A DNA stretch of 64,000 bases from Candidatus Nanohalarchaeota archaeon (GCA_017610385.1 JAFCCC010000004.1:2863-66862); one strand, 5' to 3'; positions 1 to 43,741 are shown, numbered from the stretch's first letter. Numbers and translations: made by a program. The notes: a model not told the origin generated them from the letters alone.

Positions 1-1524
1 ATAATTCTTAATAGAGCCTTTTTTAGAAAACATAGCGTCATTTAACGTCATTCCCAATTGTTGAATTCTCCGTAAAGTTTCCACGAAGAAATTATGCATA
101 GGCGTTTCTTTTTCTCCTATTTTTTCATACTCTTGAATTACTTCATAAAGAGAACGCTCCATTGGAATATTTTTAGCCAGCGAATTTTCTAACTCAGTTA
201 AACCCAAATCTAAACCTTGCTCAATTTCCTCAATCATTTCTCTGATTTTTTTCCTTTTGTAAGAACGACCAATAAAAAAAGTTACTAAGCCAGCCAAAAT
301 CCCCCAAAATATAGTAAACGCTTGGAACATATCTGCGATTAGATTTGCTCCAATATACCTCTGAGCCATAAAAATTTTGAATTCAGCAGTTCCAGAAAAG
401 AATATATACGCGTTAAAAATTTTAAAAAAATGAAATAATCCAGGGATAATTAGAACAAAAGTTATTAGAAAACATACTGGAACCAATGGAAGGAAAATTT
501 CCTTTCCACCCAATTTAATAATTAATTTATCTTTTGGTGGCACATTTGCGACATTAACTAAGGCAGGATGCGCATAAGCCCCAGGTCTCTTAGCGATTTG
601 CCTGTGAATTACAAAAAATAAAAGAGAAGGCATTATAAAAATGTATCCGACTGCAATGTAAATTGGATTTATGGCATCATGCAGAAAAATACTGACTAAT
701 GGAAACATAATCAAACCCATTATTGGCAGAACAATTCCCATCATATGTATAAGAGTAACAGGACCTTTCAAATTCTGTGCATACCTCTGCATATTGTTGT
801 AAGTAGATTCTATAATGTACTCTTGCGCTTTTTTAACCATATATCGTCGTTCATCACCCACTCTTGAAACAGAATTAATCAAATATTCTAACGCCTTAAC
901 AAAGTCATTACTCCATTCTCTCCAAAGTTGCGTATAATGACCTAGAGCAACTTTTATATTGGTGTAGTGACCCATTTCTAGATCCCATAATAATTTAGAA
1001 AGATCTGTTGATAGAGGCCCTGTGGTGTAACGGGCTGACGTTCTTATGGCCCCTTCTAAGCTAGGATTCATGTCTAAATACATTGCCATATATAAAATAA
1101 CCCTTAAAGCAGCATCTGAACCCTGAATCCTTGTAACTTCTGCTTTAAATCCAGGATAAGATAACATATAGTATGTCCAAAATAACGGAACCAACCAAAT
1201 CATAAATCTCAAAGGAGATGGAAAAATCACAGTTAAAAATAACCACACAATAGTCAGTAAACCCACGGTAATAAGAAATGTTCCTCCAATTTCTTTAGGA
1301 GTAAGATTTAGCCTAGCAACGCGAATGTGCTCTTCAAATTTCTCATCAGTTTTTTTGCCCAAGCTAACTTTAGCGAACTTAGAAAAATAATGGCACATTT
1401 TTTCGTAGAAAAGACGCCGCTCTTTGGATTTTTCTGCTTTTAAATATCTCTGATACTCTAAACTAATATACCGGTTCCTTTTTTCCTCTTCGGAAACTGG
1501 TTTAGAACGTTTTTTAAAAAACAT
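1..1524 (-). CDS. FlaJ/TadC/PilC-like polytopic platform protein (paralogue of 7599..9659); 3' end lies outside the window
   Basis: Absent from the ORF track because there is no stop in the window. The minus strand is open in one frame from ATG 1524..1522 to base 1 (508 codons): MFFKKRSKPVSEEEKRNRYISLEYQRYLKAEKSKERRLFYEKMCHYFSKF... It is collinear with ORF 7599..9659, e.g. SLEGAIRTSARYTTGPLSTDLSKLLWDLEMG vs NLEGAVIFAATNLEGPISKDLKKVLWNVEVG, and NLKGPVTLIHMMGIVLPIMGLIMFPLVSIFL vs DLKMPVTILNGFGILLPVLGMIALPLASIFL. Several long hydrophobic helices. Confidence 0.7.
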   Translation of the reverse strand, partial: MFFKKRSKPVSEEEKRNRYISLEYQRYLKAEKSKERRLFYEKMCHYFSKFAKVSLGKKTDEKFEEHIRVARLNLTPKEIGGTFLITVGLLTIVWLFLTVIFPSPLRFMIWLVPLFWTYYMLSYPGFKAEVTRIQGSDAALRVILYMAMYLDMNPSLEGAIRTSARYTTGPLSTDLSKLLWDLEMGHYTNIKVALGHYTQLWREWSNDFVKALEYLINSVSRVGDERRYMVKKAQEYIIESTYNNMQRYAQNLKGPVTLIHMMGIVLPIMGLIMFPLVSIFLHDAINPIYIAVGYIFIMPSLLFFVIHRQIAKRPGAYAHPALVNVANVPPKDKLIIKLGGKEIFLPLVPVCFLITFVLIIPGLFHFFKIFNAYIFFSGTAEFKIFMAQRYIGANLIADMFQAFTIFWGILAGLVTFFIGRSYKRKKIREMIEEIEQGLDLGLTELENSLAKNIPMERSLYEVIQEYEKIGEKETPMHNFFVETLRRIQQLGMTLNDAMFSKKGSIKNY

Positions 1525-1584
1525 TACAATAGACAATTGACGAAATTTTTTTAAATATCTTTACTAAAGAACTTTATAGGAAAG

Positions 1585-4500
1585 ATGACCACAACAAAAC
1601 CAGATTCAAAATTTAAAGGTAATACGCCAAAAATAGACTATTTTGAGCAATCAGAGTATTATTTTGATCGCAATGAAAAACGAATCCGTCTAAATCTTCA
1701 AGGAAGTAGTTATGCTGCTTCAATTGAGGATTTCGGCGAAGTTATGAGTAAAGTTATTACTTACCTTAGAAAAATAAGGGAAGCGCGATCATTTGTTCTT
1801 GCTAAGGATAGAGAATATGAATATACGGTTTACCAAACACATTTATTAAAGGAAATTGCAGAAGTTCTCGAATTTATCAAAAGAAAAAAATTAACAAATC
1901 CCTCTCAGTTAGAAATACCAAGTTGTGGAAAACATACTGCCGAAAGAGTTGCTTTTATGCAAGATTTTGTAATTAACAAATTGCAAACAGACCCTCTTGG
2001 TGCATATGTTCGACTAAAAAGATATATTGAAGAAATGACTGTTATTGAAAACAAAGAGAGAGGGATATCTAATCGTTGTTATCAAAAATATATTTCAACA
2101 GTTTTAGAGCCTATCAGAATAGAATTAGAAAAAACAGATTTAATTCAAAAAGTAAAAGATCAGCTTCCTGGACATCATATTGGAAATAGAGACATCTATA
2201 GACAGATTTTTCATCCAACAATTCGGCCAAATTTTATGTTGACTAGATATCAGGCATCGCTTCCTGAAAATGGAAATGAAATTGATCATTACATGATTCC
2301 TGTAGTAAATGCAGAAGTTCGGATTTTCAAAGTTTTAGGAGATATTAGACTACATTATCATATTACTCCGCCAGAATTTAATTTAAACGAAGAAGAATAT
2401 GCTATTTTAGATACTGCCCGAAGATATATGTCTGAACATGAACCAACAGAATCTGAGTTTGCAGATCCAGAAAGAACAAGGGAAGTTTTCTTTAATATTG
2501 GAAAAGACATGCTTTTGGATATTTTGGCTAGTATGGAACTGGAGTTAAGTGAAGAAAAAGTTGAACAATTAGCCACTATTTTAACAAGATATACTGCTGG
2601 TTTAGGAATCTTAGAGGTTCTTTTAGCAGACCCAAACTTACAAGATATTTATGTTAATTCTCCTGTAGGGAACATTCCAATTTATACTATTCACGGGAAA
2701 TATGGAGACTGCGTAACCAATCTTATTCCTACTTCCGATGATGCTGAATCCTGGGCTACACGATTCAGAATGAGCTCTGGAAGGCCATTAGATGAGGCTA
2801 ATCCTGTGTTAGATACAGAGACAGAAGTGCCAGGCGGGCGGGCCAGAGTAGCAATTATATCTAAAAATTTAAGTCCAGAAGGTCTAGCCTTCGCATTTCG
2901 ACGTCATAGAGAAAAGCCATGGACCTTTCCGTTGTTTATTGAACAAAATATGTTAACTCCATTGGCTTCTGGGTTACTAAGCTTCATAATCGACGGCGCA
3001 AGGACAATGCTCATTGCAGGAACTAGATCTGCTGGAAAATGTGTTGAGGGTAACACCTTAATTCAACTTTCTGATGGCAACATCAAAAAAATTAAGGATT
3101 TGATTGGGGTAGAAAAACTCAAAATAGATGATGGAAAATTATATGAGCCAAGAGACCCGTCTTACGTTCAAAGTTTAAGTGAAATGACCAATAGCTCACA
3201 AAAGATTCAACATGTATGGAAAAGAGAATCCCCTGAAAAAATGATTAAATTAAGGACAAAAACCGGTAAAGAGATAGTTACTACTCCAGAACACCCGTAC
3301 TTTATCTATAATGGCGCGCTAAAGAATAAAAGAGCTGATGAATTAAAGACTGGAGAGTTGATTGCAACACCAAGGAGAATTAAAACCAATGCAATAGATG
3401 TAAAAATCGAGTTAGACCACAATAATCATTTATTCACAGAAACAAAAAGTTACTATCTTGTAAAAGGTCGTACCAACGCCCATCAGGTTAAATTCCCCAA
3501 AAAAGTAACACCGGAACTTTCCGAATTTATTGGTCTCATCTGTGGAGATGGACACTTAGATTTACACAAATTAGAATTCCATAATTGTTGCCCAGAATTA
3601 AGAAAAAGATATATTTCATTACTTGAGATGTTCGATCTTCCTTACAGAGTTTTCAAAAGTAAAACTACTTATGTAGTACAGGTCACATCTAGAGTATTAA
3701 ATAGAATTTTAAATGATGTTTTCGAAATTCCATTTGGAAAAAAAGCAGATAAGATTATTATTCCACAAAAAATCTTACGATCTAATAACACTGTTTTGGC
3801 AGCATTTATTAGAGGATATTTTGACACAGATGGTTTTGTACATAAAAATAAGCGAGAAATTGAAATCACTAGTGCAAGTGAGGCCATAATTGAACAATTA
3901 AGGATGGCTCTTTTAAGATTCGGAATCATTTCTACAACGAATAGAAAACGGGTTAGAGGATCAACTTATTTTAGATTACTAATATATGGAGCTTTTATTG
4001 AACCATTTGCAAAAGAAATTGGATTTTCTCAACCTGACAAAGAAAAAAGATTAAGACGATTATTATCTGAAAAACACATGAATAATACCAATATTGATGT
4101 AATACCTCAGGGAAACGAAATCTTGCGGACTTTAAGAAAAGTTTTGAGAGTGAGTCCATTAGATTTGCGAGGGGCTGGAAAAGATTGTTGGGCATATGAA
4201 ACTAATCAGTACAGAGTAACACGAAGATGGTTTAAAAAGATCATTGAATTTTATAGAAAAAGGTATGATTATTTAATTGAGAGTAAAGAACAGATTGAAC
4301 TTCTTCGAAAATTTATTGAATTTGATTGTGATACATATTTATCTAAAGTGGATTATTTAAGAAAACTTCTTGGAATATCCTATGTAACTCTTTCTGCCGA
4401 TTTGAATATTTCTGATTCTGGACTTAAAAAAATACTTCAAAAGAACAAGGTAAGTGATATAGAAAAATTATGGGAAATCCATAAGTTAAAGCAAACTTTT

Positions 4501-7500
4501 AGCGTTCACCAAAAATCCTTATCCAATTTAAACGAGGTTGCACCAATCATTAAAAATACACCAATTTTTGTTGACGCCGGATTAATTTCTTACGCAAAAC
4601 TTTCAAGAGATTTAAAAATACCAGAAACTACGTTGAAGTCCTATTGTTATGGAGGAATCACAGTTTCAGAAGAAAAAGCAAAACTTATTGAACATAAATT
4701 GACTTCAGTTAAAAATAAAGTAGTAGAACAAATAGAAAAATCAGAGAGTATCTTGCAAGAATTAAATTCATATGATTTTATTGCACACTGTGTTTCTTTT
4801 GGAACACTATTGCAAAAATTTAGAGAAGATCTTCACATCACAAATCAGGAATTTGCTTCAGAAGACTTCTCGGTTTCTACAGTTTCTAATTTCTTTGCCG
4901 GTAGATATAAACCCTCCTACATGGTTTTAAAATCTCTTATTGGGACAATATTAAAAATTTATGATGATTCTACCTCTTTAAAGGTACAAACTAGGTTAAG
5001 CGTATTTGAAAAATTAGCAAATTCAGATATTTTTTGGGACGAAGTCTCTTCCGTGGAATTTATTAACAAGAGTGATGACTTTGTTTATGATTTGACAATT
5101 GAGAATACGCACAATTTTGTTGCAAATGGACTTTTTGCACATAATACTTCTCTTCTAAGCGCCTGTTTAACCGAGCTGATGAAGAAATACCGGATCTGCA
5201 CAGTAGAAGACTCAGTGACCGGAGATTCTAAATTGATGTATCGCATTAATAACCAATTTAAAAGAACGACTATAGGTGAACTCATTGACCCCCTCGTTGA
5301 CCCAGAGAACAAAATAGCCACAGACAATTTAGAAATACTAACAGACCTTCCTGAAAAAATAGAGGTTTATAGTATAGATGAATTCGGAAAACTTCACCTC
5401 TCACCAGTTTCTGCTGTTTCAAGGCACAAAGTTAAGAAAAAAATCTATGAAATTGAAACTAGAACTGGACGCAAAATTAAAGTAACAGAAGACCACTCAT
5501 TATTCTCTTTGAATAATTCTGCGCAAATTTGCCCAATACCCACCAAACAACTTAAAGCAGGGAATTACATTGCAACACCTCGTACCTTAAAATTATCTCA
5601 AAAAAATTTAGATTTTCTCAACTTGGCAGACTACACAGAGAAACTTAATGGATACTTTGTTTCTAAAAATATAAGCAAATATATACAGGAAAACAGAAAA
5701 AAAGTTTTAAAATTAGCTAAAAAATATAATTATTCAGATTCAACTGTGGGAAGTTGGGTACGCAACGGAATTTTGCCTTCCCCAATCTTTAAAGAACTTG
5801 ATTTAAAAGAGAACCTGCCTCTTACATCTTTAAAATATAAAGAAGGCGGTCATTCCAGGGAAATAAACTGTAAAATAGGTCTTACTGAAGAACTACTTTC
5901 TTTTATGGGTATGTGGCTAGCAGATGGCTGTTATGATCAAAGAAGCATAATACTTTCTATTGCTGATAAAGAAGCAGTTGATATCATCACAAAAATTAGC
6001 AAATTATTTGGATGCGCTCTAAAAAAGCATTCGGATGGTTTTTCATACATGTTCAATAGCAAAACTGTAAAAGAAGTTATGATTTCTGTTCTGGGCCTAA
6101 CTGGAAACTCTCATACTAAAAGAATTCCGAATCTAATATATAATTTATCAGAAAAACAAATTGGCGCATTTTTAAAAGGTTTATTTAGTGGTGACGGATA
6201 TACTGCAAAATATGAAGTAGGTATATCTCTTATTAATGCTAAATTAATCTCAGACGTTCAAACATTGCTTCTGGGGTTTGGAATTATTTCTCGCGTCAGG
6301 CTTGCGTCAGGTAAGGGCACATCTTCCTATAATACTTCACACAATATGATTAGTCTGCGCATTAGCGGAATAAAATTCTTAGAGGAATTTAGAAAAAAAG
6401 TAAATTTTGTTCAGAACCACAGAAAAGAGTTCCTAGAAAAACTCTGTAATAAAAATATAACTCACGACAATACAGATATTATTCCTATTTCTTTAGATTT
6501 TAAAAAGAGGCTTTCAGTTATTTGCCCCTCATTTAGTACCTACGATTACATCACAAGAGAAAATAATCTTGGCAGAGAAAAACTAGCTAGCTTAATAGAG
6601 GAAATCCCTGCCGGAGACACAGAACTGCTTTTGACTTCCAAGGATTTAGCAGAATCTGATGTATTTTGGGATCAAATAAAAAGCATCAAAGAAATCGAAC
6701 ACGATGGCAGTTACGTATACGATCTCTCTGTTCCTCAAAACGAATCTTTTGTATGTGAAAATATTTTAGCTCACAACACGCTAGAGATTCCAGTTTCTTC
6801 GTTGCGTGATTTGGGATATAATGTTGAACGAATGAAATCTCGTTCTGTAATTACCCAAGTTGAAAGCGAACTTTCAGCAGATGATGCAATTAGAACTGCT
6901 TTAAGATTAGGTGATTCTGTTCTAATTATTGGAGAGGTAAGGAGTTTAGAAGCTAAGTCTCTTTATGAGGCAATGCGAATTGGTGCTCTAGCAAATTTTG
7001 TGGCAGGAACAATTCACGGAGACTCAGCGTATGGTGTTTTTGATCGTGTTGTAAATGATCTAGGTGTTCCCCCAACCTCTTTTAAAGCAACAGATATTGT
7101 TGTTGTAGCAAATACTCTTAGATCTCCGGATGGGCTACATACCTTTAGGAGAGTAACCAATATTGTTGAAGTAAGAAAAGAATGGACTGAAGACCCCTTA
7201 AAAGAACACGCTTTTGTTGATTTAATGATTTATGACTCTCAAAAAGATGAATTAGTTCCAACAGACACATTATTAAACGGTGAAAGTTTCGTTTTGAACA
7301 GTATTGCGAATAATATTAGAGAATGGAAAAATGATTGGACGGCGATTTGGAATAACATATTACTAAGAGCCAAAATTAAAGAGACTCTTGTTAAATATTC
7401 TAGGGACTTTAAAAAACCAGAAATTTTAGAAGCAGAATTTACAGTTAAATCAAATGAGAAATTCCATGAACTTAGTGAGTTTGTTAAGCAAGACCAAGGA

Positions 7501-7596
7501 ATTATGAATTCTAAAAAAATATTTTCCTTATGGTTAAACTGGGTAAAAAAAGAGCTTAAACTACAAAATATAAAGGCAAATGACTTCTTATTATAG
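1585..7596 (+). CDS. Type II/IV secretion-family ATPase (GspE/FlaI/PilB/VirB11 superfamily), interrupted by two inteins
   Basis: 2003-aa ORF. Removing the two inteins in silico leaves a 779-aa extein reading ...IAGTRSAGK|TSLLSACLTELMKKYRICTVED|TLEIPV...VLIIGEVRSLEA...VAGTIHGDS. These are the Walker A, Asp box, Walker B and His box, collinear with ORF 26279..29926 (GGTGSGK|TSLLNVL..RIVSIEDTREIQL..RIIVGEIRRKRQA..YSTLHADT). Confidence 0.9.
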   Translation: MTTTKPDSKFKGNTPKIDYFEQSEYYFDRNEKRIRLNLQGSSYAASIEDFGEVMSKVITYLRKIREARSFVLAKDREYEYTVYQTHLLKEIAEVLEFIKRKKLTNPSQLEIPSCGKHTAERVAFMQDFVINKLQTDPLGAYVRLKRYIEEMTVIENKERGISNRCYQKYISTVLEPIRIELEKTDLIQKVKDQLPGHHIGNRDIYRQIFHPTIRPNFMLTRYQASLPENGNEIDHYMIPVVNAEVRIFKVLGDIRLHYHITPPEFNLNEEEYAILDTARRYMSEHEPTESEFADPERTREVFFNIGKDMLLDILASMELELSEEKVEQLATILTRYTAGLGILEVLLADPNLQDIYVNSPVGNIPIYTIHGKYGDCVTNLIPTSDDAESWATRFRMSSGRPLDEANPVLDTETEVPGGRARVAIISKNLSPEGLAFAFRRHREKPWTFPLFIEQNMLTPLASGLLSFIIDGARTMLIAGTRSAGKCVEGNTLIQLSDGNIKKIKDLIGVEKLKIDDGKLYEPRDPSYVQSLSEMTNSSQKIQHVWKRESPEKMIKLRTKTGKEIVTTPEHPYFIYNGALKNKRADELKTGELIATPRRIKTNAIDVKIELDHNNHLFTETKSYYLVKGRTNAHQVKFPKKVTPELSEFIGLICGDGHLDLHKLEFHNCCPELRKRYISLLEMFDLPYRVFKSKTTYVVQVTSRVLNRILNDVFEIPFGKKADKIIIPQKILRSNNTVLAAFIRGYFDTDGFVHKNKREIEITSASEAIIEQLRMALLRFGIISTTNRKRVRGSTYFRLLIYGAFIEPFAKEIGFSQPDKEKRLRRLLSEKHMNNTNIDVIPQGNEILRTLRKVLRVSPLDLRGAGKDCWAYETNQYRVTRRWFKKIIEFYRKRYDYLIESKEQIELLRKFIEFDCDTYLSKVDYLRKLLGISYVTLSADLNISDSGLKKILQKNKVSDIEKLWEIHKLKQTFSVHQKSLSNLNEVAPIIKNTPIFVDAGLISYAKLSRDLKIPETTLKSYCYGGITVSEEKAKLIEHKLTSVKNKVVEQIEKSESILQELNSYDFIAHCVSFGTLLQKFREDLHITNQEFASEDFSVSTVSNFFAGRYKPSYMVLKSLIGTILKIYDDSTSLKVQTRLSVFEKLANSDIFWDEVSSVEFINKSDDFVYDLTIENTHNFVANGLFAHNTSLLSACLTELMKKYRICTVEDSVTGDSKLMYRINNQFKRTTIGELIDPLVDPENKIATDNLEILTDLPEKIEVYSIDEFGKLHLSPVSAVSRHKVKKKIYEIETRTGRKIKVTEDHSLFSLNNSAQICPIPTKQLKAGNYIATPRTLKLSQKNLDFLNLADYTEKLNGYFVSKNISKYIQENRKKVLKLAKKYNYSDSTVGSWVRNGILPSPIFKELDLKENLPLTSLKYKEGGHSREINCKIGLTEELLSFMGMWLADGCYDQRSIILSIADKEAVDIITKISKLFGCALKKHSDGFSYMFNSKTVKEVMISVLGLTGNSHTKRIPNLIYNLSEKQIGAFLKGLFSGDGYTAKYEVGISLINAKLISDVQTLLLGFGIISRVRLASGKGTSSYNTSHNMISLRISGIKFLEEFRKKVNFVQNHRKEFLEKLCNKNITHDNTDIIPISLDFKKRLSVICPSFSTYDYITRENNLGREKLASLIEEIPAGDTELLLTSKDLAESDVFWDQIKSIKEIEHDGSYVYDLSVPQNESFVCENILAHNTLEIPVSSLRDLGYNVERMKSRSVITQVESELSADDAIRTALRLGDSVLIIGEVRSLEAKSLYEAMRIGALANFVAGTIHGDSAYGVFDRVVNDLGVPPTSFKATDIVVVANTLRSPDGLHTFRRVTNIVEVRKEWTEDPLKEHAFVDLMIYDSQKDELVPTDTLLNGESFVLNSIANNIREWKNDWTAIWNNILLRAKIKETLVKYSRDFKKPEILEAEFTVKSNEKFHELSEFVKQDQGIMNSKKIFSLWLNWVKKELKLQNIKANDFLL
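3040..5145 (+). mobile_element. Intein 1 (702 aa, LAGLIDADG homing-endonuclease type) inserted in the Walker A motif
   Basis: Begins with Cys (CVEGNTLIQL, tgt 3040..3042) directly after the P-loop Lys. Block B is VTTPEHPYF. Two LAGLIDADG motifs (FIGLICGDGHL, FIRGYFDTDGFV). Ends FVANGLFAHN (aat 5143..5145) followed by +1 Thr. In frame with the host. Confidence 0.9.
5212..6777 (+). mobile_element. Intein 2 (522 aa, LAGLIDADG type) inserted in the Asp-box (..VED|T..)
   Basis: Begins with Ser (SVTGDSKLMY, tca 5212..5214). Block B is KVTEDHSLF. LAGLIDADG motifs are FMGMWLADGCYD and FLKGLFSGDGYT. Ends FVCENILAHN (aac 6775..6777) followed by +1 Thr. Excision restores RICTVED-TLEI, matching RIVSIEDTREI of the paralogue. 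Confidence 0.85.
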
Positions 7597-7598
7597 GT

Positions 7599-9659
7599 AT
7601 GGATCATAAGCTTGATGAAGCATGGTGGGATAAAGAACGAAAAAAGTTACAAAGACGCTTTAATGGATCTGAATTTTTACACGGAGAAGAAAGATTTCGC
7701 TCAAAAGACTATTTGAAATTTATAGAAAGCTCCAAACCAGAAAAAGAGAATCTTTATGTTAAATTATGTCATTCTTTTCAAAAATTTCAAATTAAGCCAG
7801 ATAAAGCAACTAATGTTAAACTTACAAACGCGATTAACTTGCTGGAATGGGACATTACTCCAGGTCAGTGTATGACAACTGGAATATTTCTTGCTATTGT
7901 TTTAGCAATTCCTAGTTTTTTAGTATTCTTATTTAAAATTTCACTTATTCTTAAATTGGCAGCATTTTCAATTCCGCTTATTGCATTGTATGTTGGAATG
8001 ACTTATCCTCATATAAAAGCATTAGAAAAAATTGTAAAAGGTTCTGAAGATCTAATTTTTTGCATACTATATATGATAATATACACGTATTCTTCTCCAA
8101 ATCTAGAAGGTGCTGTTATCTTTGCAGCCACAAATTTAGAAGGTCCGATTTCAAAGGATTTAAAAAAAGTTTTGTGGAATGTTGAAGTTGGAAATCAAAT
8201 AAATGTTGATCGCTCTCTTTCAGATTATATTGCTCGCTGGGAGCCATATAATCGGGATTTTCTTGAATCAGTCCAATTAATCAAAGGTGCGATGAGAGAG
8301 CCTTCAGATCAAAAAAGAAATGAAATGTTGCATGCTTCATCTGAAACGATTTTACAAGGCACCAAAGAAAAAATGAAACATTATTCTCAAGACTTAAAAA
8401 TGCCTGTTACAATTTTAAATGGTTTCGGTATATTACTTCCTGTTTTAGGTATGATTGCTTTACCCTTGGCATCTATTTTTTTAGAATCAACGATTAAACT
8501 TTCGCATCTAATTTTATTTTATGATATAGTTTTACCTTTGATTCTTTATACTGTAATGATCCGTGTTTTAATTAAAAGACCACCAACAACCAGCGTTCAA
8601 CCCCTAAATCAACGAGCTCTCCCACCAAAAGGCAAATTTACTATTAAACTCGGTAAAAAACACATAAAAATTCCCGCATTAGTTCCTGCAATTTTAATTT
8701 TTGTCGCACTTGCCACCCCCGGATTAATTAGTTTAATACAAAATCCCATGCTTCAAGAACCATCTATTGCAAATATGAGCAGAAGTCTATTCATTGTGTT
8801 GGGTTTGGGTTTGGGCATTGGTACCTACTTTTTTATAGGCTATAAACAGAGATATGAAAAACAAAAACAGCTTGAAATCATAGAAGCTCAATTTCCAGTT
8901 GCGTTATTTGAACTTGGACACAGGTTAGCTGATGGAAAACCAATTGAAGCTGCTCTGGATTCTGCAGCATATGCCATGAAAAATCTATCTATTTCTGGAT
9001 TTTTCAGAATAATCTCAAATAATATTAAAAGAGTTAACATGGTTTTTAGAGATTCTATATTTGACAAAGAACTTGGCGCCATTAGAAAATATCCTTCAAA
9101 GTTAATAGAAACTGTTATGAAGGCAATTGTAGATGCTGCCCGGAGAGGTACCAAGGTTGTAAGTGGCACAATGCTTACTATTGCCTCATATCTTCAAAAT
9201 TTACATAACACTCAAGAAGAGATTTCTGATTTAATGGAAGAAAGTACAACCACTATGAAATTCGTTGGTTTTATGCTTGCACCAGTAATTGCAGGAGTTG
9301 CAGTCTCCATGACTCAAATTATGATCAATGCACTAACGATTTTAAAAGAGAAGTTTGCAGATGTCGGAGAAATTGGAGCAGGTGGCGCAGATACGGGCAT
9401 GGGTACAAATTTATTATCTGGATTTATAAAATTAGAATCAATGATTCCCCCACACATATTGCAATTAGTTATTGGAATTTACATAATTGAGATTTTACTG
9501 ATTATTGGTTTATTTTATACTAGAGTAAAACAAGGAGAAAATAAAACCGTAGAAAGAATGAACATGGGCAAATTATTATTAATTGGATCAATAGTTTATG
9601 TAATTACCACGTTACTAATTTCTGCAATCTTTGGGGGAATATTAAAAACAATTATTTAA
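7599..9659 (+). CDS. FlaJ/TadC/PilC-like polytopic platform protein
   Basis: 686 aa with many long hydrophobic segments. Cytoplasmic helical stretches have T2SS-F-like wording (EAQFPVALFELGHRLADGKPIEAALDSAA). The ATG lies 2 nt after the ATPase stop. Paralogue of 1..1524. Family assigned by eye only. Confidence 0.6.
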   Translation: MDHKLDEAWWDKERKKLQRRFNGSEFLHGEERFRSKDYLKFIESSKPEKENLYVKLCHSFQKFQIKPDKATNVKLTNAINLLEWDITPGQCMTTGIFLAIVLAIPSFLVFLFKISLILKLAAFSIPLIALYVGMTYPHIKALEKIVKGSEDLIFCILYMIIYTYSSPNLEGAVIFAATNLEGPISKDLKKVLWNVEVGNQINVDRSLSDYIARWEPYNRDFLESVQLIKGAMREPSDQKRNEMLHASSETILQGTKEKMKHYSQDLKMPVTILNGFGILLPVLGMIALPLASIFLESTIKLSHLILFYDIVLPLILYTVMIRVLIKRPPTTSVQPLNQRALPPKGKFTIKLGKKHIKIPALVPAILIFVALATPGLISLIQNPMLQEPSIANMSRSLFIVLGLGLGIGTYFFIGYKQRYEKQKQLEIIEAQFPVALFELGHRLADGKPIEAALDSAAYAMKNLSISGFFRIISNNIKRVNMVFRDSIFDKELGAIRKYPSKLIETVMKAIVDAARRGTKVVSGTMLTIASYLQNLHNTQEEISDLMEESTTTMKFVGFMLAPVIAGVAVSMTQIMINALTILKEKFADVGEIGAGGADTGMGTNLLSGFIKLESMIPPHILQLVIGIYIIEILLIIGLFYTRVKQGENKTVERMNMGKLLLIGSIVYVITTLLISAIFGGILKTII

Positions 9660-26278: not shown

Positions 26279-29200
26279 ATGAAAGAATATATGGAAGAAT
26301 ATATTGTAGATTCAGACGGCGTTCCCGCCAGAATAAGAATTATTGATGGAACAGATTATGTACCTCATTATGAAGTAGACCGTCCAATTATTAATGAAGC
26401 AACTGAAGCAATTTTAGAGGAAATCAAAAGTGGTTTAGTACGAGAAGTTACAATTTCTATTAAAGAATATGTTGATTCAAAAGAATTAGAAGGTGTTAAA
26501 GAAAAATTTATAGCAAAAGCAAATGAATTAATTAAATCAGTTCTTCCTCGTGTTGGAGAAGCCCAACGAAAGGTACTAATTGGAAATTTAATTCATGAGA
26601 TGCTTGGTTTGGGAGATTTAGAAATTTTACTAAATGATGATAAATTAGAAGAAATTGTAATTAATAGTTCAAAAGAACCAGTCTGGGTTTATCATAAAAA
26701 ATTAGGCTGGTTAAAAACAAATATTATACCAAAAAGTGAAAGTGAAACTTATAATTATTCTTCAATTATTGGTAGGAGAGTTGGTCGCCAAATTTCAAAT
26801 TTAAATCCCTTATTAGATGCACACTTGCCGTCGGGGGATAGAACAAACGCGACAATATTTCCAATTTCAACCAAAGGAAACACATTAACTATCAGAAAAT
26901 TTGCAAGATCTCCATGGACTATTACTGATTTTATTGAAAATCATACAATATCTGCAGATATTGCCGCATTGATTTGGTTGTGTATGCAATATGAATTGAA
27001 TGTCCTAATATCTGGAGGTACGGGATCTGGCAAATGTGTTTCAGGAGACACACAAGTTTTATTATCAAATGGAGAACTTAAACGTATCAAGGATGTAGTT
27101 GATGAGAACCTAAGTTCTAATTGTGTACCTAGCGATGATGGTTGGTATTCAAAACAGACCTCAGTTTCATTATTTTCAATGAATTCTAATTTAAAACTAA
27201 ATGAAAGAAGTTGCTCGCAAATTTGGAAAAGAGAGGCCCCCGAATATTTGTTTGAACTTACCTTTCAGAGTGGCAAAAAAATCAAAGTTACTCCAGAACA
27301 CCCGTTCTTTGTTAATGATGCAGGAGATATACGAAAAATCTGTGCAGAAGATCTTACAACCGGCCAAAGAGCCGCTACAACTAGAAAGATTAATATAAAA
27401 GGCGAAGTCTATTCTTTAGAAGAGAAATTGAGCAATCTAAGTTTCTTCAGGCAAAAAGAAAAAGATTATGTGCTTTTGTGCTCACCGAAAGGACTGCCTG
27501 TAAAATTCCCTACCAAATTATCCCCTGAACTGGCTAAATTTATTGCGTATTTATTAGGAGATGGACATTTGAGTAAAGATGGTTCTCAATTAGCATTTCA
27601 TAATACCAATCATCGCCTTTTAAATGAGTTTCAAAATCTTGGTGAAAAGCTATTTGATATAAACTTCCACCACAAGAAACCTAAAAATCGTGTTGAATGT
27701 ATTCGTTGTTATTCCAAAACCTTATGCGAGACCATTTCTCAAGTATTTTGTATTCCCAAAGGTGTAAAATCACACAGGATTTTAGTACCAAAAGAAATTT
27801 TAGGAGGCACAGAAGAAATCATCTGTGGATTTGTAAAGGCACTAATGGATTGTGAGGGGTCAGTTAGTCTCAATAAAGATGAGATAGAATTTGGTTCTAA
27901 AAGTTCAGAGATTGTTAACCAGTTGCAATATCTTCTAAATAGAATAGGCATTATTTCTCGAGTGAAGTTTGGTAAGAACAACAGAAATAGACTATTTATT
28001 TCTTCAAGAGATGTTAGAATATTTACTAAGAAGATTGGTTTTACACACCCCCTTAAAAAAGATAAGTTAGAACAGCTTCTGACCAAAAAATTAAATCCCA
28101 ACTTTGATCTACTTCCCTGTCAATCCCTTCTGAAAAAAGTTTGTAATAATTTTTCATTATACGACAAAGAAGTAGCATTAGGATCTAAACTAAGTCGAAG
28201 GAGTATTTCTCGGTACTTAGATGGATCGAGAATGCCTTCCCCCGCAAATTTACAAAGAATATATAATTTTCTAACTCATAAAAATGACCAAATAAAGCAG
28301 GAATTAGAAAGATTCTCATTAGTCGAAGGGTTAATTAAAAAAATACCGGAAAAAGAAGCATTATTACATTGCACTAAAATTCTTGATCTAACTCATTTAA
28401 ACACTAATGATATTCTTTTCAAGAGCGGATTAAGTAATTCGATTTATTGGCAATGGAAACAAGAGGTTACACCATATACAAAAAATTTAGTTAAATTTGG
28501 AAACTGCGTTGTAGACTCATTTGAAAATTTTGAAAAGAATGTGATGAATGCTGAAACTCTAGAAGATTTTACCAACTGCGGAATCTATAAAAAAGAGATT
28601 GCAGAATATGCAGAACTGCCACTAAACCAGGTTTATAAAAAAAGCAAAATCAACAAACCTTTAAATCATTTGCAGTTGGATGCTGTAAAACTTCAAGAAT
28701 CTGTTCTTTTAGAGGAAGTTAGAGCTGAGGCTAAAAAACTCAAAGAAATTCTGAGCAGTTGGGATAAAAAAGATTACCAAGCAATTTTTAGTGAAATTGT
28801 TCGTCTAAGAAATTTATTGAGGTTGTACCCTGAAAAAACAAAAAAGGATTTGGGTTATAGTATTCCTCAAAGCACCGAGTCTGTTGTTCAGTATTCTAAA
28901 GAAAAGCTTACGGGGATTTCTAATTATCTTCGCGAGACTCTAGAGCAAATGCACGCAAATGGAACGAAATTACTTCGAAATTTGGAAAATTTGGTTAAAA
29001 GCGATGTTCTTTGGGACAAAATTGTTACCATTAAACAGATAAAATCTACTGAAAAGTGGGTTTATGATTTAACTGTTCCAGATACACACAATTTTGTTGC
29101 TAATGGTATAATTGCACATAATACGTCTTTATTGAATGTTCTAATGCCATTTATACCCGCAAATCAAAGAATTGTTTCAATAGAAGATACTAGAGAAATT

Positions 29201-29926
29201 CAGCTTCCAAATTTTTTACATTGGGTTCCTTTAACAACTAGACAACAAAATCCAGAAGGCAAAGGAAAAGTTTCAATGTTAGATCTTTTAGTTAATTCTT
29301 TAAGAATGAGACCAGATAGAATAATTGTTGGAGAAATACGAAGAAAGAGGCAGGCAGAGGTTTTATTTGAAGCTATGCACACAGGACATTCTGTTTATTC
29401 TACCCTCCATGCAGATACTGCACAACAAACGATTAGGCGATTAATAAATCCTCCAATTGATGTTCCAGTATCTATGATTTCGGCAATAGATTTAAATGTT
29501 GTAATGTTTCGAGATAGACGAAGAAACTTTCGAAGAGTTATGGAGGTAGCCGAAGTTATTCCAGAGTTTCAGGGAGCTAATTCCGAAGCCAATGCTAATA
29601 TAATTTATCGCTGGCATCCCAAATCAGATGTAATACGAAAAGAAGGCAGAAGCATTAGAGTAAATAGTCAATTAGAATTGCATGCTGGGCTAAGTCAAGA
29701 AGAAATACGAGCCGACATCGCAGAAAAAGTCAAAATTCTAAATTGGATGGTCAAAGAAAATATTAGAGATATTGAAGAAGTAGGCAAACTTATTGCAGAA
29801 TATTACAAAGATAAAACTGTCGTATTAAATTTGATTAGTAAACCATACCACTTAAAATCTACCAAGGTTCAAGTAATCAAACCAAAACGTGTGAATTCAA
29901 AAACAATAAGAAAAGCCAAAAAATAA
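26279..29926 (+). CDS. FlaI/PilB-like type IV pilus assembly ATPase interrupted by one intein
   Basis: The extein is 519 aa: ..LISGGTGSGK|TSLLNVLMPF..RIVSIEDTREIQL..MRPDRIIVGEIRRKRQAEVLFEAMHTGHSVYSTLHADT. This gives Walker A, Asp box, Walker B and His box. Confidence 0.9.
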   Translation: MKEYMEEYIVDSDGVPARIRIIDGTDYVPHYEVDRPIINEATEAILEEIKSGLVREVTISIKEYVDSKELEGVKEKFIAKANELIKSVLPRVGEAQRKVLIGNLIHEMLGLGDLEILLNDDKLEEIVINSSKEPVWVYHKKLGWLKTNIIPKSESETYNYSSIIGRRVGRQISNLNPLLDAHLPSGDRTNATIFPISTKGNTLTIRKFARSPWTITDFIENHTISADIAALIWLCMQYELNVLISGGTGSGKCVSGDTQVLLSNGELKRIKDVVDENLSSNCVPSDDGWYSKQTSVSLFSMNSNLKLNERSCSQIWKREAPEYLFELTFQSGKKIKVTPEHPFFVNDAGDIRKICAEDLTTGQRAATTRKINIKGEVYSLEEKLSNLSFFRQKEKDYVLLCSPKGLPVKFPTKLSPELAKFIAYLLGDGHLSKDGSQLAFHNTNHRLLNEFQNLGEKLFDINFHHKKPKNRVECIRCYSKTLCETISQVFCIPKGVKSHRILVPKEILGGTEEIICGFVKALMDCEGSVSLNKDEIEFGSKSSEIVNQLQYLLNRIGIISRVKFGKNNRNRLFISSRDVRIFTKKIGFTHPLKKDKLEQLLTKKLNPNFDLLPCQSLLKKVCNNFSLYDKEVALGSKLSRRSISRYLDGSRMPSPANLQRIYNFLTHKNDQIKQELERFSLVEGLIKKIPEKEALLHCTKILDLTHLNTNDILFKSGLSNSIYWQWKQEVTPYTKNLVKFGNCVVDSFENFEKNVMNAETLEDFTNCGIYKKEIAEYAELPLNQVYKKSKINKPLNHLQLDAVKLQESVLLEEVRAEAKKLKEILSSWDKKDYQAIFSEIVRLRNLLRLYPEKTKKDLGYSIPQSTESVVQYSKEKLTGISNYLRETLEQMHANGTKLLRNLENLVKSDVLWDKIVTIKQIKSTEKWVYDLTVPDTHNFVANGIIAHNTSLLNVLMPFIPANQRIVSIEDTREIQLPNFLHWVPLTTRQQNPEGKGKVSMLDLLVNSLRMRPDRIIVGEIRRKRQAEVLFEAMHTGHSVYSTLHADTAQQTIRRLINPPIDVPVSMISAIDLNVVMFRDRRRNFRRVMEVAEVIPEFQGANSEANANIIYRWHPKSDVIRKEGRSIRVNSQLELHAGLSQEEIRADIAEKVKILNWMVKENIRDIEEVGKLIAEYYKDKTVVLNLISKPYHLKSTKVQVIKPKRVNSKTIRKAKK
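27035..29122 (+). mobile_element. Intein (696 aa, LAGLIDADG type) in Walker A, at the same site as intein 1 of ORF 1585..7596
   Basis: Cys start (CVSGDTQVLL, tgt 27035..27037). Block B is KVTPEHPFF. LAGLIDADG motifs are FIAYLLGDGHL and FVKALMDCEGSV. Ends FVANGIIAHN (aat 29120..29122) + Thr. Clearly homologous along its length to 3040..5145. Confidence 0.9.
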
Positions 29927-43114: not shown

Positions 43115-43741
43115 ATGAATATTAAAGAACAAATCAAAGTTCTAAAAGAAAAAGATCCAATTTTAGGAGAAGTAATAGATCAAATTGGCATAATTACCAT
43201 ACCTCACAAAGAGGAAAATACGTTTATTGCGCTGTCAAACACAATAATTTATCAACAATTAGCAGGAAATGCCGCCAAATCCATTTATGGACGATTTAAA
43301 GCACTTTGTAATAATGAAATAGCCCCAAAAAAAGTGCAGAGTTTATCTCTCGAAGAATTAAGAACTGCGGGTCTCTCTGAGCGAAAAGCTTTATATCTGA
43401 AGGACCTCGCAAGGAACTTTATTAAAGGTATGATTCTTCCTGAAAACTTTAGTAAATTAAGTAATGAAAAAATTATGGAAAAACTAATGGCTGTAAAAGG
43501 AATTGGTCCATGGACTGTAGAAATGTTTTTAATATTTAACCTAAATCGGCCAGATGTTTTTTCAGCCAAAGATTTGGGATTGCATAAGGGAATTTGTAAA
43601 TTATACAATAAAAAGTATCCTTTAACAGAAAAAGAATTAAATGAAATCGCAGAAAAATGGAGTCCGCATAGAACTCTAGCTTCTTTATATTTATGGAAAA
43701 TTAAAGACCGCGTGAATTTTGAGCCAATGTTTATTGATTAA
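43115..43741 (+). CDS. HhH-GPD DNA glycosylase (AlkA / 3-methyladenine glycosylase II-like)
   Basis: IIYQQLAGNAAKSIYGRF.., HhH LMAVKGIGPWTVEMFLIFNLNRPDVFSAKDLGLHKGI with the conserved Asp. Confidence 0.8.
   Translation: MNIKEQIKVLKEKDPILGEVIDQIGIITIPHKEENTFIALSNTIIYQQLAGNAAKSIYGRFKALCNNEIAPKKVQSLSLEELRTAGLSERKALYLKDLARNFIKGMILPENFSKLSNEKIMEKLMAVKGIGPWTVEMFLIFNLNRPDVFSAKDLGLHKGICKLYNKKYPLTEKELNEIAEKWSPHRTLASLYLWKIKDRVNFEPMFID

What the first reader, a model, noticed from the sequence alone, without database searches (positions are those of the whole stretch)
3040..6777. Two homing-endonuclease inteins only 22 codons apart in one secretion ATPase, hitting the Walker A and the Asp box
Intein 1 (702 aa, Cys1...HN/Thr+1) splits GTRSAGK|TSLL. 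Intein 2 (522 aa, Ser1...HN/Thr+1) splits TVED|TLEI. Only TSLLSACLTELMKKYRICTVED (nt 5146..5211) lies between them, so 61% of the ORF is intein. Both keep two LAGLIDADG motifs, so homing activity may be intact. From memory, inteins have precedent in this family (the KlbA inteins of archaeal VirB11-like ATPases). A tandem pair bracketing a 22-residue extein peptide still raises questions about splicing order and folding.
Basis: partly seen in the sequence, partly recalled or inferred. Interest (0 to 1): 0.7.

Follow-up and report, generated by a model that had tools for sequence, protein, structure and literature searches.

The report
Two inteins in a pilus ATPase
A pilus-motor ATPase gene of a tiny DPANN archaeon is interrupted by two genuine self-splicing mobile inteins only 22 codons apart in its ATP-binding site, which is a striking but ordinary example of a known phenomenon that recurs in related archaea.

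Summary
ORF 1585-7596 (2003 aa) holds a 702-aa intein (nt 3040-5145, Cys1...HN|Thr) and a 522-aa intein (nt 5212-6777, Ser1...HN|Thr), 22 codons apart; 61.1% of the ORF is intein. Both pass the Pfam and TIGRFAM splicing-domain and LAGLIDADG cut-offs. Both give confident models resembling TliVMA and PI-PkoII.

Removing both restores a 779-aa T2SSE/FlaI-type ATPase. It aligns without internal gaps, at 80% identity, to an intein-free syntenic orthologue. The junctions fall at Walker A (GK|T) and the Asp box (ED|T).

The arrangement is not unique. Among 238 DPANN homologues, inteins occupy three fixed sites (Walker A, Asp box, Walker B) in every pairwise combination. Walker A plus Asp box occurs in six other protein clusters, always with a 22-residue spacer, and it is scattered across the extein tree. 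Exteins 94-98% identical differ in occupancy, so these inteins are still being gained or lost.

Multi-intein archaeal genes, P-loop inteins and VirB11-family inteins are all documented. Verdict: real, first reading supported, a new member of a known kind, of moderate interest. Splicing order and endonuclease activity remain untested.

The parts
1585..7596 (+). Precursor ORF, 2003 aa: a T2SSE/FlaI/CpaF-type type IV filament ATPase carrying two inteins
   Evidence: Pfam T2SSE scores 33 bits unspliced and 61.5 bits once spliced.
1585..3039 (+). N-extein, 485 aa, ending in Walker A ...AGTRSAGK
   Evidence: G479, R481, G484 and K485 are invariant in 238 homologues.
3040..5145 (+). Intein 1 (site a, Walker A), 702 aa, Cys1...His-Asn, +1 Thr
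   Evidence: PF14890 104.2 bits; TIGR01445 and TIGR01443 pass. AF2 model pLDDT 90.9. Best fold match TliVMA intein 7QSS, TMt 0.73.
3265..3303 (+). Intein 1 block B (GKEIVTTPEHPYF; T82 and H85 invariant)
3517..3558 (+). Intein 1, first LAGLIDADG motif LSEFIGLICGDGHL (D170 and G171 invariant)
   Evidence: LAGLIDADG_3 82.2 bits
3796..3840 (+). Intein 1, second LAGLIDADG motif LAAFIRGYFDTDGFV (D264 invariant)
4108..5019 (+). Intein 1 extra all-helical domain (residues 357-660) with Xre-type HTH modules, between the endonuclease core and the C-terminal splicing blocks
   Evidence: HTH_3 37.5 bits, 2 stretches. The model is all helices over 358-660, with pLDDT mostly 85-94. The region is present in most site-a inteins but absent from the 532-539 aa versions.
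5080..5145 (+). Intein 1 blocks F and G (FVYDLTIENTHNFVANGLFAHN)
   Evidence: TIGR01443 30.5 bits
5146..5211 (+). 22-codon inter-intein extein spacer TSLLSACLTELMKKYRICTVED, running from the Walker A Thr to the Asp box Asp
   Evidence: It is 22/22 identical to the intein-free orthologue. Spacer length is 22 in all 238 homologues.
5212..6777 (+). Intein 2 (site b, Asp box), 522 aa, Ser1...His-Asn, +1 Thr
   Evidence: PF14890 97.9 bits; TIGR01445 and TIGR01443 pass. AF2 model pLDDT 91.1, pTM 0.91. Best fold match PI-PkoII 2CW7, TMq 0.71.
5467..5505 (+). Intein 2 block B (GRKIKVTEDHSLF; T92, D94 and H95 invariant)
5893..5934 (+). Intein 2, first LAGLIDADG motif LLSFMGMWLADGCY
6160..6204 (+). Intein 2, second LAGLIDADG motif IGAFLKGLFSGDGYT
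   Evidence: LAGLIDADG_3 55.1 bits
6712..6777 (+). Intein 2 blocks F and G (YVYDLSVPQNESFVCENILAHN)
6778..7596 (+). C-extein, 272 aa plus stop. It starts TLEIP (rest of the Asp box) and contains Walker B LIIGEVRS and the His box GTIHG.

Best explanation
The gene encodes the assembly ATPase of a type IV filament (pilus-like) machine of a DPANN archaeon whose nearest named relatives are Nanohaloarchaeota. It has been invaded at two catalytic motifs by two separate mobile class 1 inteins, each carrying a LAGLIDADG homing endonuclease. Intein 1 sits after the Walker A lysine (GK|T). Intein 2 sits 22 residues later in the Asp box (ED|T).

After translation each Hint domain should fold on its own and excise itself by the standard four-step pathway: an N-S or N-O acyl shift at Cys1 or Ser1, transesterification to the +1 Thr, Asn cyclisation, and an O-N shift. 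That yields a 779-aa active ATPase plus two free endonucleases. The +1 threonines are themselves conserved active-site residues, which makes the sites safe havens for the inteins.

The two inteins were most likely acquired separately by homing into alleles that were empty or singly occupied. The same sites are independently occupied, singly or in pairs, across DPANN relatives.

Shown here: the anatomy, the exact junctions, the restoration of the host protein, the folds, the family-wide site occupancy and its patchiness. Inferred: actual splicing, endonuclease activity, independent and unordered splicing, and sequential acquisition.
For: - Junctions and intein fraction are exact.
- Splicing and endonuclease profiles score above their curated cut-offs for both inteins.
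- All catalytic residues are present and are invariant or nearly so in 26-sequence alignments.
- The models are confident (pLDDT 90.9 and 91.1) and match solved HEN inteins: TliVMA 7QSS and PI-PkoII 2CW7.
- The spliced extein is 80.4% identical, with no internal gap, to the intein-free syntenic orthologue P0122/L001, and the spacer is 22/22 identical.
- The extein aligns gaplessly to 2OAP, CpaF and FlaI across Walker A and the Asp box.
- Extein dN/dS against that orthologue is about 0.06, and 0.026 in the ATPase core, so the host protein is under strong purifying selection and must be made.
- Census of 238 homologues: every insertion lies after extein residue 485, 507 or 563 with uniform chemistry. 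Site a is Cys1/HN/T or S; site b is Ser1/HN/T; site c is Ser1/HN/T. Counts are 31 a, 72 b, 7 ab, 7 bc and 3 ac.
- The a+b state needs 7 changes for 7 rows on both the FastTree and IQ-TREE extein trees.
- Exteins 93.5-97.6% identical differ in occupancy.
- Intein 1 is 52% identical to inteins whose exteins are only 45-47% identical, but 40% identical to the intein of the closest site-a extein (57%). That discordance suggests horizontal intein movement.
- The endonuclease cores are as conserved as the splicing blocks.
- Literature: multi-intein archaeal genes and neighbouring MCM-a/MCM-d inteins (PMC10643990); P-loop inteins and 21 archaeal VirB11 inteins (PMC4760082).
Against: - There is no experimental or read-level evidence of splicing or DNA cleavage. 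The only public run found holds low-depth fragments and shows no informative joints.
- The closest sampled relatives of each intein are only 46-52% identical, so no recent transfer into this lineage is documented.
- dS is saturated, so dN/dS averages over a long history that may largely precede the invasions.
- The homologue sample is biased by search length windows and hit caps, so occupancy frequencies and any association between sites a and b cannot be estimated.
- Thr+1 and Asp-1 are not the most favourable junction residues in model inteins (my own knowledge), although they are universal at these sites.
Confidence: 0.8

Rival explanations
1. Both inteins still splice, but one or both endonuclease domains are catalytically dead. 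They would be retained only because the splicing fold depends on them, so the pair is now a fixed, immobile passenger.
For: The homing cycle predicts endonuclease decay after fixation, and some inteins need the endonuclease domain for splicing (PMC10643990). The closest sampled inteins are at most 52% identical, so no recent transfer is seen for this lineage. Sequence alone cannot prove activity.
Against: All four LAGLIDADG acidic residues are present and invariant or nearly so. The endonuclease cores are as conserved as the splicing blocks. Occupancy differs between exteins 94-98% identical, and the nearest orthologue is empty, as expected for elements that are still mobile.
Confidence: 0.2
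2. The pair behaves as one composite mobile unit. The cut sites are only 66 bp apart, so cleavage of an empty allele by either or both endonucleases would be repaired from the doubly occupied donor in a single conversion tract that copies both inteins and the spacer (co-homing).
For: The window's sister allele is empty at both sites, and so is the sister of P0002 at 93.5% extein identity, so two changes happened over short distances. The strongest GC3 peak of the whole 2003-codon ORF covers the spacer and the first codons after intein 2 (14 of 22 against a mean of 0.23). That could be a foreign conversion tract.
Against: Other a+b holders sit next to b-only or a-only alleles, which fits sequential gain. 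In these proteins intein a and intein b identities do not track each other. No donor-like match to the spacer DNA was found, and the synonymous-site difference is not significant: 7/21 against 30/61. In Haloferax, double-intein homing into empty alleles is about five orders of magnitude less efficient (PMC10643990).
Confidence: 0.12
3. The inteins have been co-opted as post-translational switches. Conditional splicing, for example redox or temperature sensitivity of the Cys1 intein, would gate assembly of the pilus that a DPANN symbiont needs to attach to its host.
For: Conditional splicing is documented for other P-loop inteins, for example M. smegmatis DnaB (PMC6195587) and the RadA intein (PMC11409957); both were seen only as abstracts in the listing. 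Inteins cluster on catalytic motifs (PMC4760082). Three P-loop ATPase genes in this 64-kb window carry Walker A inteins.
Against: Occupancy is patchy. All 13 named genomes found through the N-extein alone lack inteins, and the nearest orthologue is empty. The function is therefore dispensable. No regulatory feature was found, and the selfish-element explanation suffices.
Confidence: 0.06
4. The gene is a dead precursor. One intein no longer splices and the ATPase function is supplied by the second T2SSE paralogue at 26279-29926.
For: A paralogous ATPase exists in the same window.
Against: All splicing residues are intact. The 2003-codon frame is open in AT-rich DNA. Extein dN/dS is about 0.06. 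The paralogue's extein is only 28% identical and belongs to a different locus.
Confidence: 0.03

Closest known systems
Haloarchaeal MCM-a / MCM-d double inteins (Turgeman-Grott et al. 2023, PMC10643990)
   Same: Two LAGLIDADG-bearing inteins lie close together in the ATPase domain of one P-loop protein, one of them directly after the Walker A lysine. Single, double and empty alleles coexist among relatives, and gain and loss are frequent on the extein tree.
   Different: The host is a type IV filament ATPase of DPANN archaea and not a replicative helicase. The second site is the Asp box, a motif specific to secretion ATPases. The spacing here is 22 residues (66 bp). Interference between the two endonucleases has not been tested here.
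VMA-b inteins of Thermococcales V-ATPase subunit A (TliVMA and PhoVMA; PDB 7QSS, 7QSU, 7QST)
   Same: They are the best sequence match (97.7 bits) and fold match (TMt 0.73) for intein 1. PMC10643990 states that archaeal VMA-b inteins occupy the same position, after the Walker A lysine. That Tli and Pho VMA are VMA-b inteins is from my own memory.
   Different: The host ATPase family differs. Intein 1 carries an extra helical HTH-containing domain of about 300 aa that the VMA inteins lack. Identity is only about 27%.
PI-PkoII (Thermococcus kodakarensis Pol intein 2, PDB 2CW7)
   Same: It is the best sequence match (75.4 bits) and fold match (TMq 0.71) for intein 2, with the same Hint plus endonuclease architecture over the full length.
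   Different: The host is a DNA polymerase, the insertion motif is unrelated, and identity is 20%.
Inteins of archaeal VirB11/COG0630 ATPases, including the KlbA inteins (Novikova et al. 2016, PMC4760082; Mja KlbA, PDB 2JMZ)
   Same: The host belongs to the same superfamily (T2SSE/VirB11/FlaI). Novikova et al. count 21 such inteins in archaea.
   Different: From my own memory, Mja KlbA is a mini-intein that begins with Ala1 and uses the class 2 mechanism. The inteins here are large, carry endonucleases and start with Cys1 or Ser1. Whether KlbA uses site a, b or c could not be tested, because the supplement is not held.
Mycobacterium smegmatis DnaB inteins DnaBi1 and DnaBi2 (PMC6195587)
   Same: Two inteins in one replicative helicase that splice at very different rates and respond differently to stressors (abstract only). 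This is a precedent for independent, unequal splicing of two inteins in one precursor.
   Different: It is a bacterial helicase. PMC10643990 says one of the two is a mini-intein without an endonuclease. The paper itself was not read.

Membership tests
Class 1 intein (Hint-domain protein-splicing element) | Nucleophile (Cys, Ser or Thr) as first residue | tested here: met
   Intein 1 has Cys1 and intein 2 has Ser1. The same residue occurs in 42 of 42 site-a and 86 of 86 site-b inteins.
Class 1 intein (Hint-domain protein-splicing element) | Block B TxxH motif | tested here: met
   TPEH (T82, H85 invariant) and TEDH (T92, H95 invariant)
Class 1 intein (Hint-domain protein-splicing element) | Blocks F and G, with terminal His-Asn followed by a Cys, Ser or Thr +1 residue | tested here: met
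   VYDL...AHN|T in both inteins. TIGR01443 scores 30.5 and 19.0 bits against a cut-off of 15.6.
Class 1 intein (Hint-domain protein-splicing element) | Profile match to the splicing domain above the curated threshold | tested here: met
   PF14890 scores 104.2 and 97.9 bits (cut-off 35.8). TIGR01445 scores 54.7 and 46.1 bits (cut-off 24.5).
Class 1 intein (Hint-domain protein-splicing element) | In-frame removal restores a contiguous, conserved host protein | tested here: met
   The 779-aa extein against the 778-aa intein-free orthologue: 80.4% identity and no internal gap. It also aligns gaplessly to 2OAP.
Class 1 intein (Hint-domain protein-splicing element) | Demonstrated protein splicing | not testable with these tools
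   This needs expression and a western blot, or mass spectrometry.
LAGLIDADG homing endonuclease (two-motif, monomeric) | Two LAGLIDADG motifs, each ending in a conserved acidic residue | tested here: met
   Intein 1...GLICGDG and ...YFDTDG, with D170 and D264 invariant. Intein 2...WLADG and ...FSGDG, with D238 and D328 at least 90% conserved.
LAGLIDADG homing endonuclease (two-motif, monomeric) | Profile and fold match | tested here: met
   PF14528 scores 82.2 and 55.1 bits (cut-off 22.5). Foldseek matches HEN inteins and I-DmoI or I-Tsp061I with TMt 0.6-0.8.
LAGLIDADG homing endonuclease (two-motif, monomeric) | Site-specific cleavage of the intein-less allele | not testable with these tools
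   There is only indirect support: patchy occupancy among near-identical exteins.
T2SSE / PilB / FlaI / CpaF / VirB11 secretion-ATPase superfamily (host protein) | Walker A, Asp box, Walker B and His box in order | tested here: met
   After splicing the motifs are GTRSAGKT, VEDTLE, LIIGEVR and GTIHG. They align to 2OAP (95.4 bits), CpaF and FlaI and are invariant in 238 homologues.
T2SSE / PilB / FlaI / CpaF / VirB11 secretion-ATPase superfamily (host protein) | Pfam T2SSE above threshold | tested here: met
   61.5 bits spliced and 33.0 bits unspliced, against a cut-off of 24.9
T2SSE / PilB / FlaI / CpaF / VirB11 secretion-ATPase superfamily (host protein) | Adjacent platform protein (T2SSF/TadC/FlaJ type) | tested here: inconclusive
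   The divergent upstream ORF 1-1536 (-) scores 24.8 bits on T2SSF, just under the 25.2 cut-off. Its counterpart in L004 has a recorded PF00482 hit.
KlbA inteins (InBase name for inteins of archaeal KlbA/VirB11 homologues) | Ala1 N-terminus and the class 2 splicing mechanism (from memory) | tested here: not met
   The first residues here are Cys1 and Ser1.
KlbA inteins (InBase name for inteins of archaeal KlbA/VirB11 homologues) | Same insertion site in the host ATPase | not tested
   The KlbA insertion site was not found in the held literature. 2JMZ matches only as a generic Hint domain.
Multi-intein genes with neighbouring endonuclease-bearing inteins (MCM-a/MCM-d type) | Two or more endonuclease-bearing inteins in one catalytic domain, with singly occupied and empty alleles among relatives | tested here: met
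   Census of 238 homologues: 118 empty, 72 b, 31 a, 7 ab, 7 bc and 3 ac
Multi-intein genes with neighbouring endonuclease-bearing inteins (MCM-a/MCM-d type) | Mutual interference of the two endonucleases during homing into an empty allele | not testable with these tools
   This needs genetics or in vitro cleavage and repair assays.

The most novel reading that the evidence does not exclude
The two cleavage sites are only 66 bp apart, and intein 1 carries an extra multi-HTH DNA-binding domain of about 300 aa. The two homing sites may therefore abut or overlap. In that case occupancy of one site would change recognition of the other, and the pair would move either strictly in sequence or as one 3.7-kb composite element that drags the spacer with it. 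The GC3-rich patch over the spacer would be the footprint of such a conversion tract. This would make the DPANN pilus ATPase family, with three sites within 78 residues in all pairwise combinations, the tightest natural system for studying cooperation or conflict between neighbouring inteins.
Probability: 0.12. Interest if true: 0.6.

Novelty: new member of a known kind. Interest (0 to 1): 0.35.

Why it matters
The element itself is ordinary: multi-intein genes, P-loop inteins and inteins in VirB11-type ATPases are all documented. Three things give it some value.

(1) It documents an apparently undescribed intein hot spot. The large type IV filament ATPase of DPANN archaea has three fixed sites, at Walker A, the Asp box and Walker B, occupied in all pairwise combinations and polymorphic between near-identical hosts. 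That is a natural data set for testing the model that neighbouring inteins interfere with each other, here at only 66 bp spacing.

(2) It has a practical annotation consequence. With two inteins the T2SSE signal drops from 61.5 to 33 bits. Several doubly occupied homologues have no recorded T2SSE hit, and one is named simply "LAGLIDADG family homing endonuclease". Surveys may therefore under-count pilus machinery in DPANN archaea.

(3) Both inteins use Thr+1 and tolerate very short native extein context, which may interest protein engineers.

Tried and rejected
- **Co-conversion footprint.** The spacer and the next ~10 codons form the highest GC3 window of the ORF. I fetched DNA of the empty orthologue and four intein-bearing relatives. 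No donor-like match appeared, and the synonymous-site difference (7/21 against 30/61) is not significant. I kept it only as a weak hint.
- **Population polymorphism from reads.** One search found no run. A second found a single marine metagenome with short, low-depth fragments 97-98% identical to both inteins, and no joints across either intein. This was inconclusive.
- **Internal promoters or terminators in the inteins.** Counts were at the level of shuffled sequence. I rejected this.
- **Recent intragenomic spread of one intein among the window's three ATPase genes.** Intein 1 is 34% identical to the Walker A intein of the second ATPase but up to 52% identical to same-site inteins in other genomes. 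Intein 2 is 28% identical to the HerA intein. There is no recent copying.
- **KlbA site equivalence.** I could not establish it.
- **Triple a+b+c occupancy.** None was seen among listed hits, but site c is rare, so its absence carries little weight.
- **Occupancy frequencies and a test of association between sites a and b.** I abandoned these because both homologue lists are capped and filtered by length. The 50% cluster representatives may also favour long members (my assumption).

Full report
**Observation.** The window has one open frame on the + strand from 1585 to 7596, 2003 codons long. A script placed the first insert at residues 486-1187 (nt 3040-5145, 702 aa, CVEGNTLI...NGLFAHN, followed by TSLL). 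It placed the second at residues 1210-1731 (nt 5212-6777, 522 aa, SVTGDSKL...ENILAHN, followed by TLEI). Between them lie exactly 22 codons, TSLLSACLTELMKKYRICTVED (nt 5146-5211), and 61.1% of the ORF is insert.

**Are they inteins?** Yes.
- Pfam Intein_splicing scores 104.2 and 97.9 bits (cut-off 35.8), and LAGLIDADG_3 scores 82.2 and 55.1 bits (cut-off 22.5).
- The NCBIfam N- and C-terminal splicing models TIGR01445 and TIGR01443 pass for both.
- Block B is TPEH in intein 1 and TEDH in intein 2. Blocks F and G read VYDL...HNF..AHN and VYDL...ESF..AHN.
- In 26-sequence alignments of same-site inteins, residue 1, the block B Thr and His, the block F Asp and the terminal His-Asn are all invariant.
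- AlphaFold2 models are confident: pLDDT 90.9 and pTM 0.78 for intein 1, and pLDDT 91.1 and pTM 0.91 for intein 2.
- Foldseek ranks the endonuclease-associated TliVMA intein 7QSS first for intein 1 (TMt 0.73) and PI-PkoII 2CW7 first for intein 2 (TMq 0.71).

**Host protein and insertion points.** Deleting both inserts gives a 779-aa protein. Its Pfam T2SSE score rises from 33.0 to 61.5 bits. It aligns without a gap across both junctions to Archaeoglobus GspE2 (2OAP, 95.4 bits), CpaF and FlaI. In that alignment ...AGTRSAGK|TSLL... overlies the Walker A GKT, and ...TVED|TLEIP... overlies the EDT.E Asp box.

The closest database homologue, P0122, has no intein. It is 778 aa long and 80.4% identical, with no internal gap and a spacer identical at 22 of 22 residues. 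It lies in a syntenic locus, with a divergent T2SSF-like gene followed by the ATPase, a 687-aa gene and a 211-aa gene.

Extein dN/dS against this orthologue is about 0.06, and 0.026 in the ATPase core. dS is saturated, but this still indicates a functional host gene, which implies that both inteins splice (inference).

**Endonucleases.** Each intein has two LAGLIDADG motifs that keep the terminal acidic residue. In intein 1 these are GLICGDG and YFDTDG, with D170 and D264 invariant. In intein 2 they are WLADG and FSGDG. Across 42 site-a and 86 site-b inteins the endonuclease cores are as conserved as the splicing blocks. Activity is plausible but not shown.

Intein 1 is long because about 300 residues of helices (357-660) sit between the endonuclease core and the C-terminal splicing blocks. 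This region has Xre-type HTH matches (HTH_3, 37.5 bits). Shorter site-a inteins of 532-539 aa lack it.

**Family context.** The ATPase belongs to a large DPANN family. Sources name its members as Nanohaloarchaea, Nanoarchaeota, Woesearchaeota and Aenigmarchaeota. I aligned 238 full-length homologues to the spliced extein.
- Every large insertion falls at one of three positions: after residue 485 (site a, Walker A GK|T/S), 507 (site b, Asp box ED|T) or 563 (site c, Walker B GEVRS|T).
- Junction chemistry is uniform at each site.
- The counts are 118 empty, 72 b, 31 a, 7 a+b (including the window), 7 b+c and 3 a+c.
- The spacer between sites a and b is 22 residues in all 238 sequences.
- The flanks of sites a and b are almost invariant. 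The +1 residue of site c varies. The window has Leu there, which lacks a nucleophile, whereas all ten site-c holders have Thr.

These counts come from capped, length-filtered searches, so they are not frequencies. In a small sample gathered without regard to inteins, 13 named genomes found through the N-extein alone, none carries an intein.

**Evolution.** On both a FastTree of all 238 exteins and an IQ-TREE of a 70-row subset, the seven a+b holders need seven separate changes.
- The window and P0002 are sisters of empty alleles.
- P0003 and P0005 are sisters of b-only alleles.
- P0004, P0006 and P0008 are nested among a-only alleles.

Exteins that are 93.5-97.6% identical differ in occupancy: P0036 (b) against P0171 (empty), P0095 (a) against P0102 (b), and P0002 (a+b) against P0235 (empty).

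Intein 1 is most like inteins whose exteins are distant (52% intein identity against 45-47% extein identity). It is less like the intein of the nearest site-a extein (40% against 57%). Together these results indicate ongoing gain and loss and horizontal intein movement. The double state appears to be assembled repeatedly, mostly on alleles already occupied at one site. That is what Turgeman-Grott et al. concluded for haloarchaeal MCM-a and MCM-d (PMC10643990).

**Mechanism.** The most likely course is independent folding and self-excision of each Hint domain by the class 1 pathway, with the conserved active-site threonines serving as +1 nucleophiles. I see no sequence reason why 22 residues of intervening extein should hinder this. 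From general knowledge of the P-loop fold, those residues are the helix after the P-loop and the strand leading to the Asp box. The order and any interdependence of the two reactions are unknown.

**Comparison with the known.**
- Multi-intein genes are common in archaea: 47 in 41 Thermococcales genomes and 41 in 66 Halobacteriales genomes (PMC10643990).
- Insertion after the Walker A lysine is a classic site, seen in MCM-a, VMA-b, RFC-a and DnaB-b (PMC4760082 and PMC10643990).
- Archaeal VirB11/COG0630 proteins were already credited with 21 inteins.
The precedent is therefore at host-superfamily level only.
- I found no paper describing inteins in the DPANN pilus ATPase family, its three sites or the a+b pair. 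The MCM study's survey of two DPANN genomes found no multi-intein gene.

I classify the finding as a new member of a known kind.

**Side results.** The same 64-kb window holds two more Walker A inteins. One is in a second T2SSE ATPase (nt 27035-29122), whose Asp box site is empty. The other is in a HerA-like ATPase (nt 45247-46815, minus strand). These are old paralogous lineages and not recent copies.

Doubly occupied homologues often lack a recorded T2SSE hit, and one is named only as a homing endonuclease. A recent survey reports type IV filament systems as scarce in DPANN archaea (PMC13705601). Intein-laden ATPases may contribute to that impression, though this is speculation.

**Verdict.** The arrangement is real and neat but ordinary in kind. 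Interest is about 0.35.

Noticed in passing
window 26279-29926 (+); intein at 27035-29122: A second, paralogous T2SSE ATPase (519-aa extein, 28% identical to the first) carries a 696-aa LAGLIDADG intein at the same Walker A bond (GSGK|C...AHN|TSLL). Its Asp box site (SIED|TREI) is empty. This intein is 34% identical to intein 1 and has a similar long insert after the endonuclease core.
   Followed up: partly
window 43738-47223 (-); intein at 45247-46815: A HerA/DUF87-type ATPase carries a 523-aa LAGLIDADG intein after its Walker A lysine (TGSGK|C...SHN|SYL), with an Xre-type HTH hit. It is 28% identical to intein 2 over its full length. The window therefore holds four inteins in three P-loop ATPase genes.
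   Followed up: partly
window 4108-5019 (+), intein 1 residues 357-660: A confidently modelled all-helical domain of about 300 aa, with HTH_3 matches, sits between the LAGLIDADG core and the C-terminal splicing blocks. It may extend DNA recognition. It is absent from the 532-539 aa site-a inteins of P0006 and P0008.
   Followed up: partly
window 7008-7010 (extein residue 564, Leu); relatives P0026, P0027, P0039, P0041, P0063, P0067, P0081, P0082, P0112, P0114: The family has a third intein site at Walker B (GEVRS|S...HN|T). All ten holders have Thr at +1. The window has Leu there, so a site-c intein could not splice in this allele without co-conversion of that codon.
   Followed up: yes
window 5146-5211 and 6778-6810: The highest third-position GC content of the whole 2003-codon ORF (14 of 22 codons against a mean of 0.23) lies over the inter-intein spacer and the first codons after intein 2. 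The empty orthologue shows only a mild rise in the same region. It could be a conversion-tract footprint, but this is statistically weak and no donor was found.
   Followed up: partly
P0095 vs P0102; P0036 vs P0171; P0002 vs P0235 (homologues, no window coordinates): Exteins 93.5-97.6% identical differ in intein occupancy. One pair, at 96.3% identity, has only site a filled in one member and only site b filled in the other. This implies very recent gain or loss.
   Followed up: partly
Homologues P0002, P0005, P0006, P0008: Doubly occupied homologues are poorly annotated. P0002 is named "LAGLIDADG family homing endonuclease", and several have no precomputed T2SSE hit. Inteins can hide pilus ATPases from automated surveys.
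   Followed up: no
window 1-1536 (-) and 7599-9659 (+): The ATPase is flanked by a divergent T2SSF-like platform gene (24.8 bits, just under the cut-off) and by a 686-aa gene with no Pfam hit. The order is conserved in the intein-free relative L001 and in L004.
   Followed up: partly
window 3235-3487 and 6229-6479: One public marine metagenome run (coded X1) holds short, low-depth contigs 97-98% identical to parts of both inteins. A close relative that carries both inteins therefore exists in a marine sample.
   Followed up: partly
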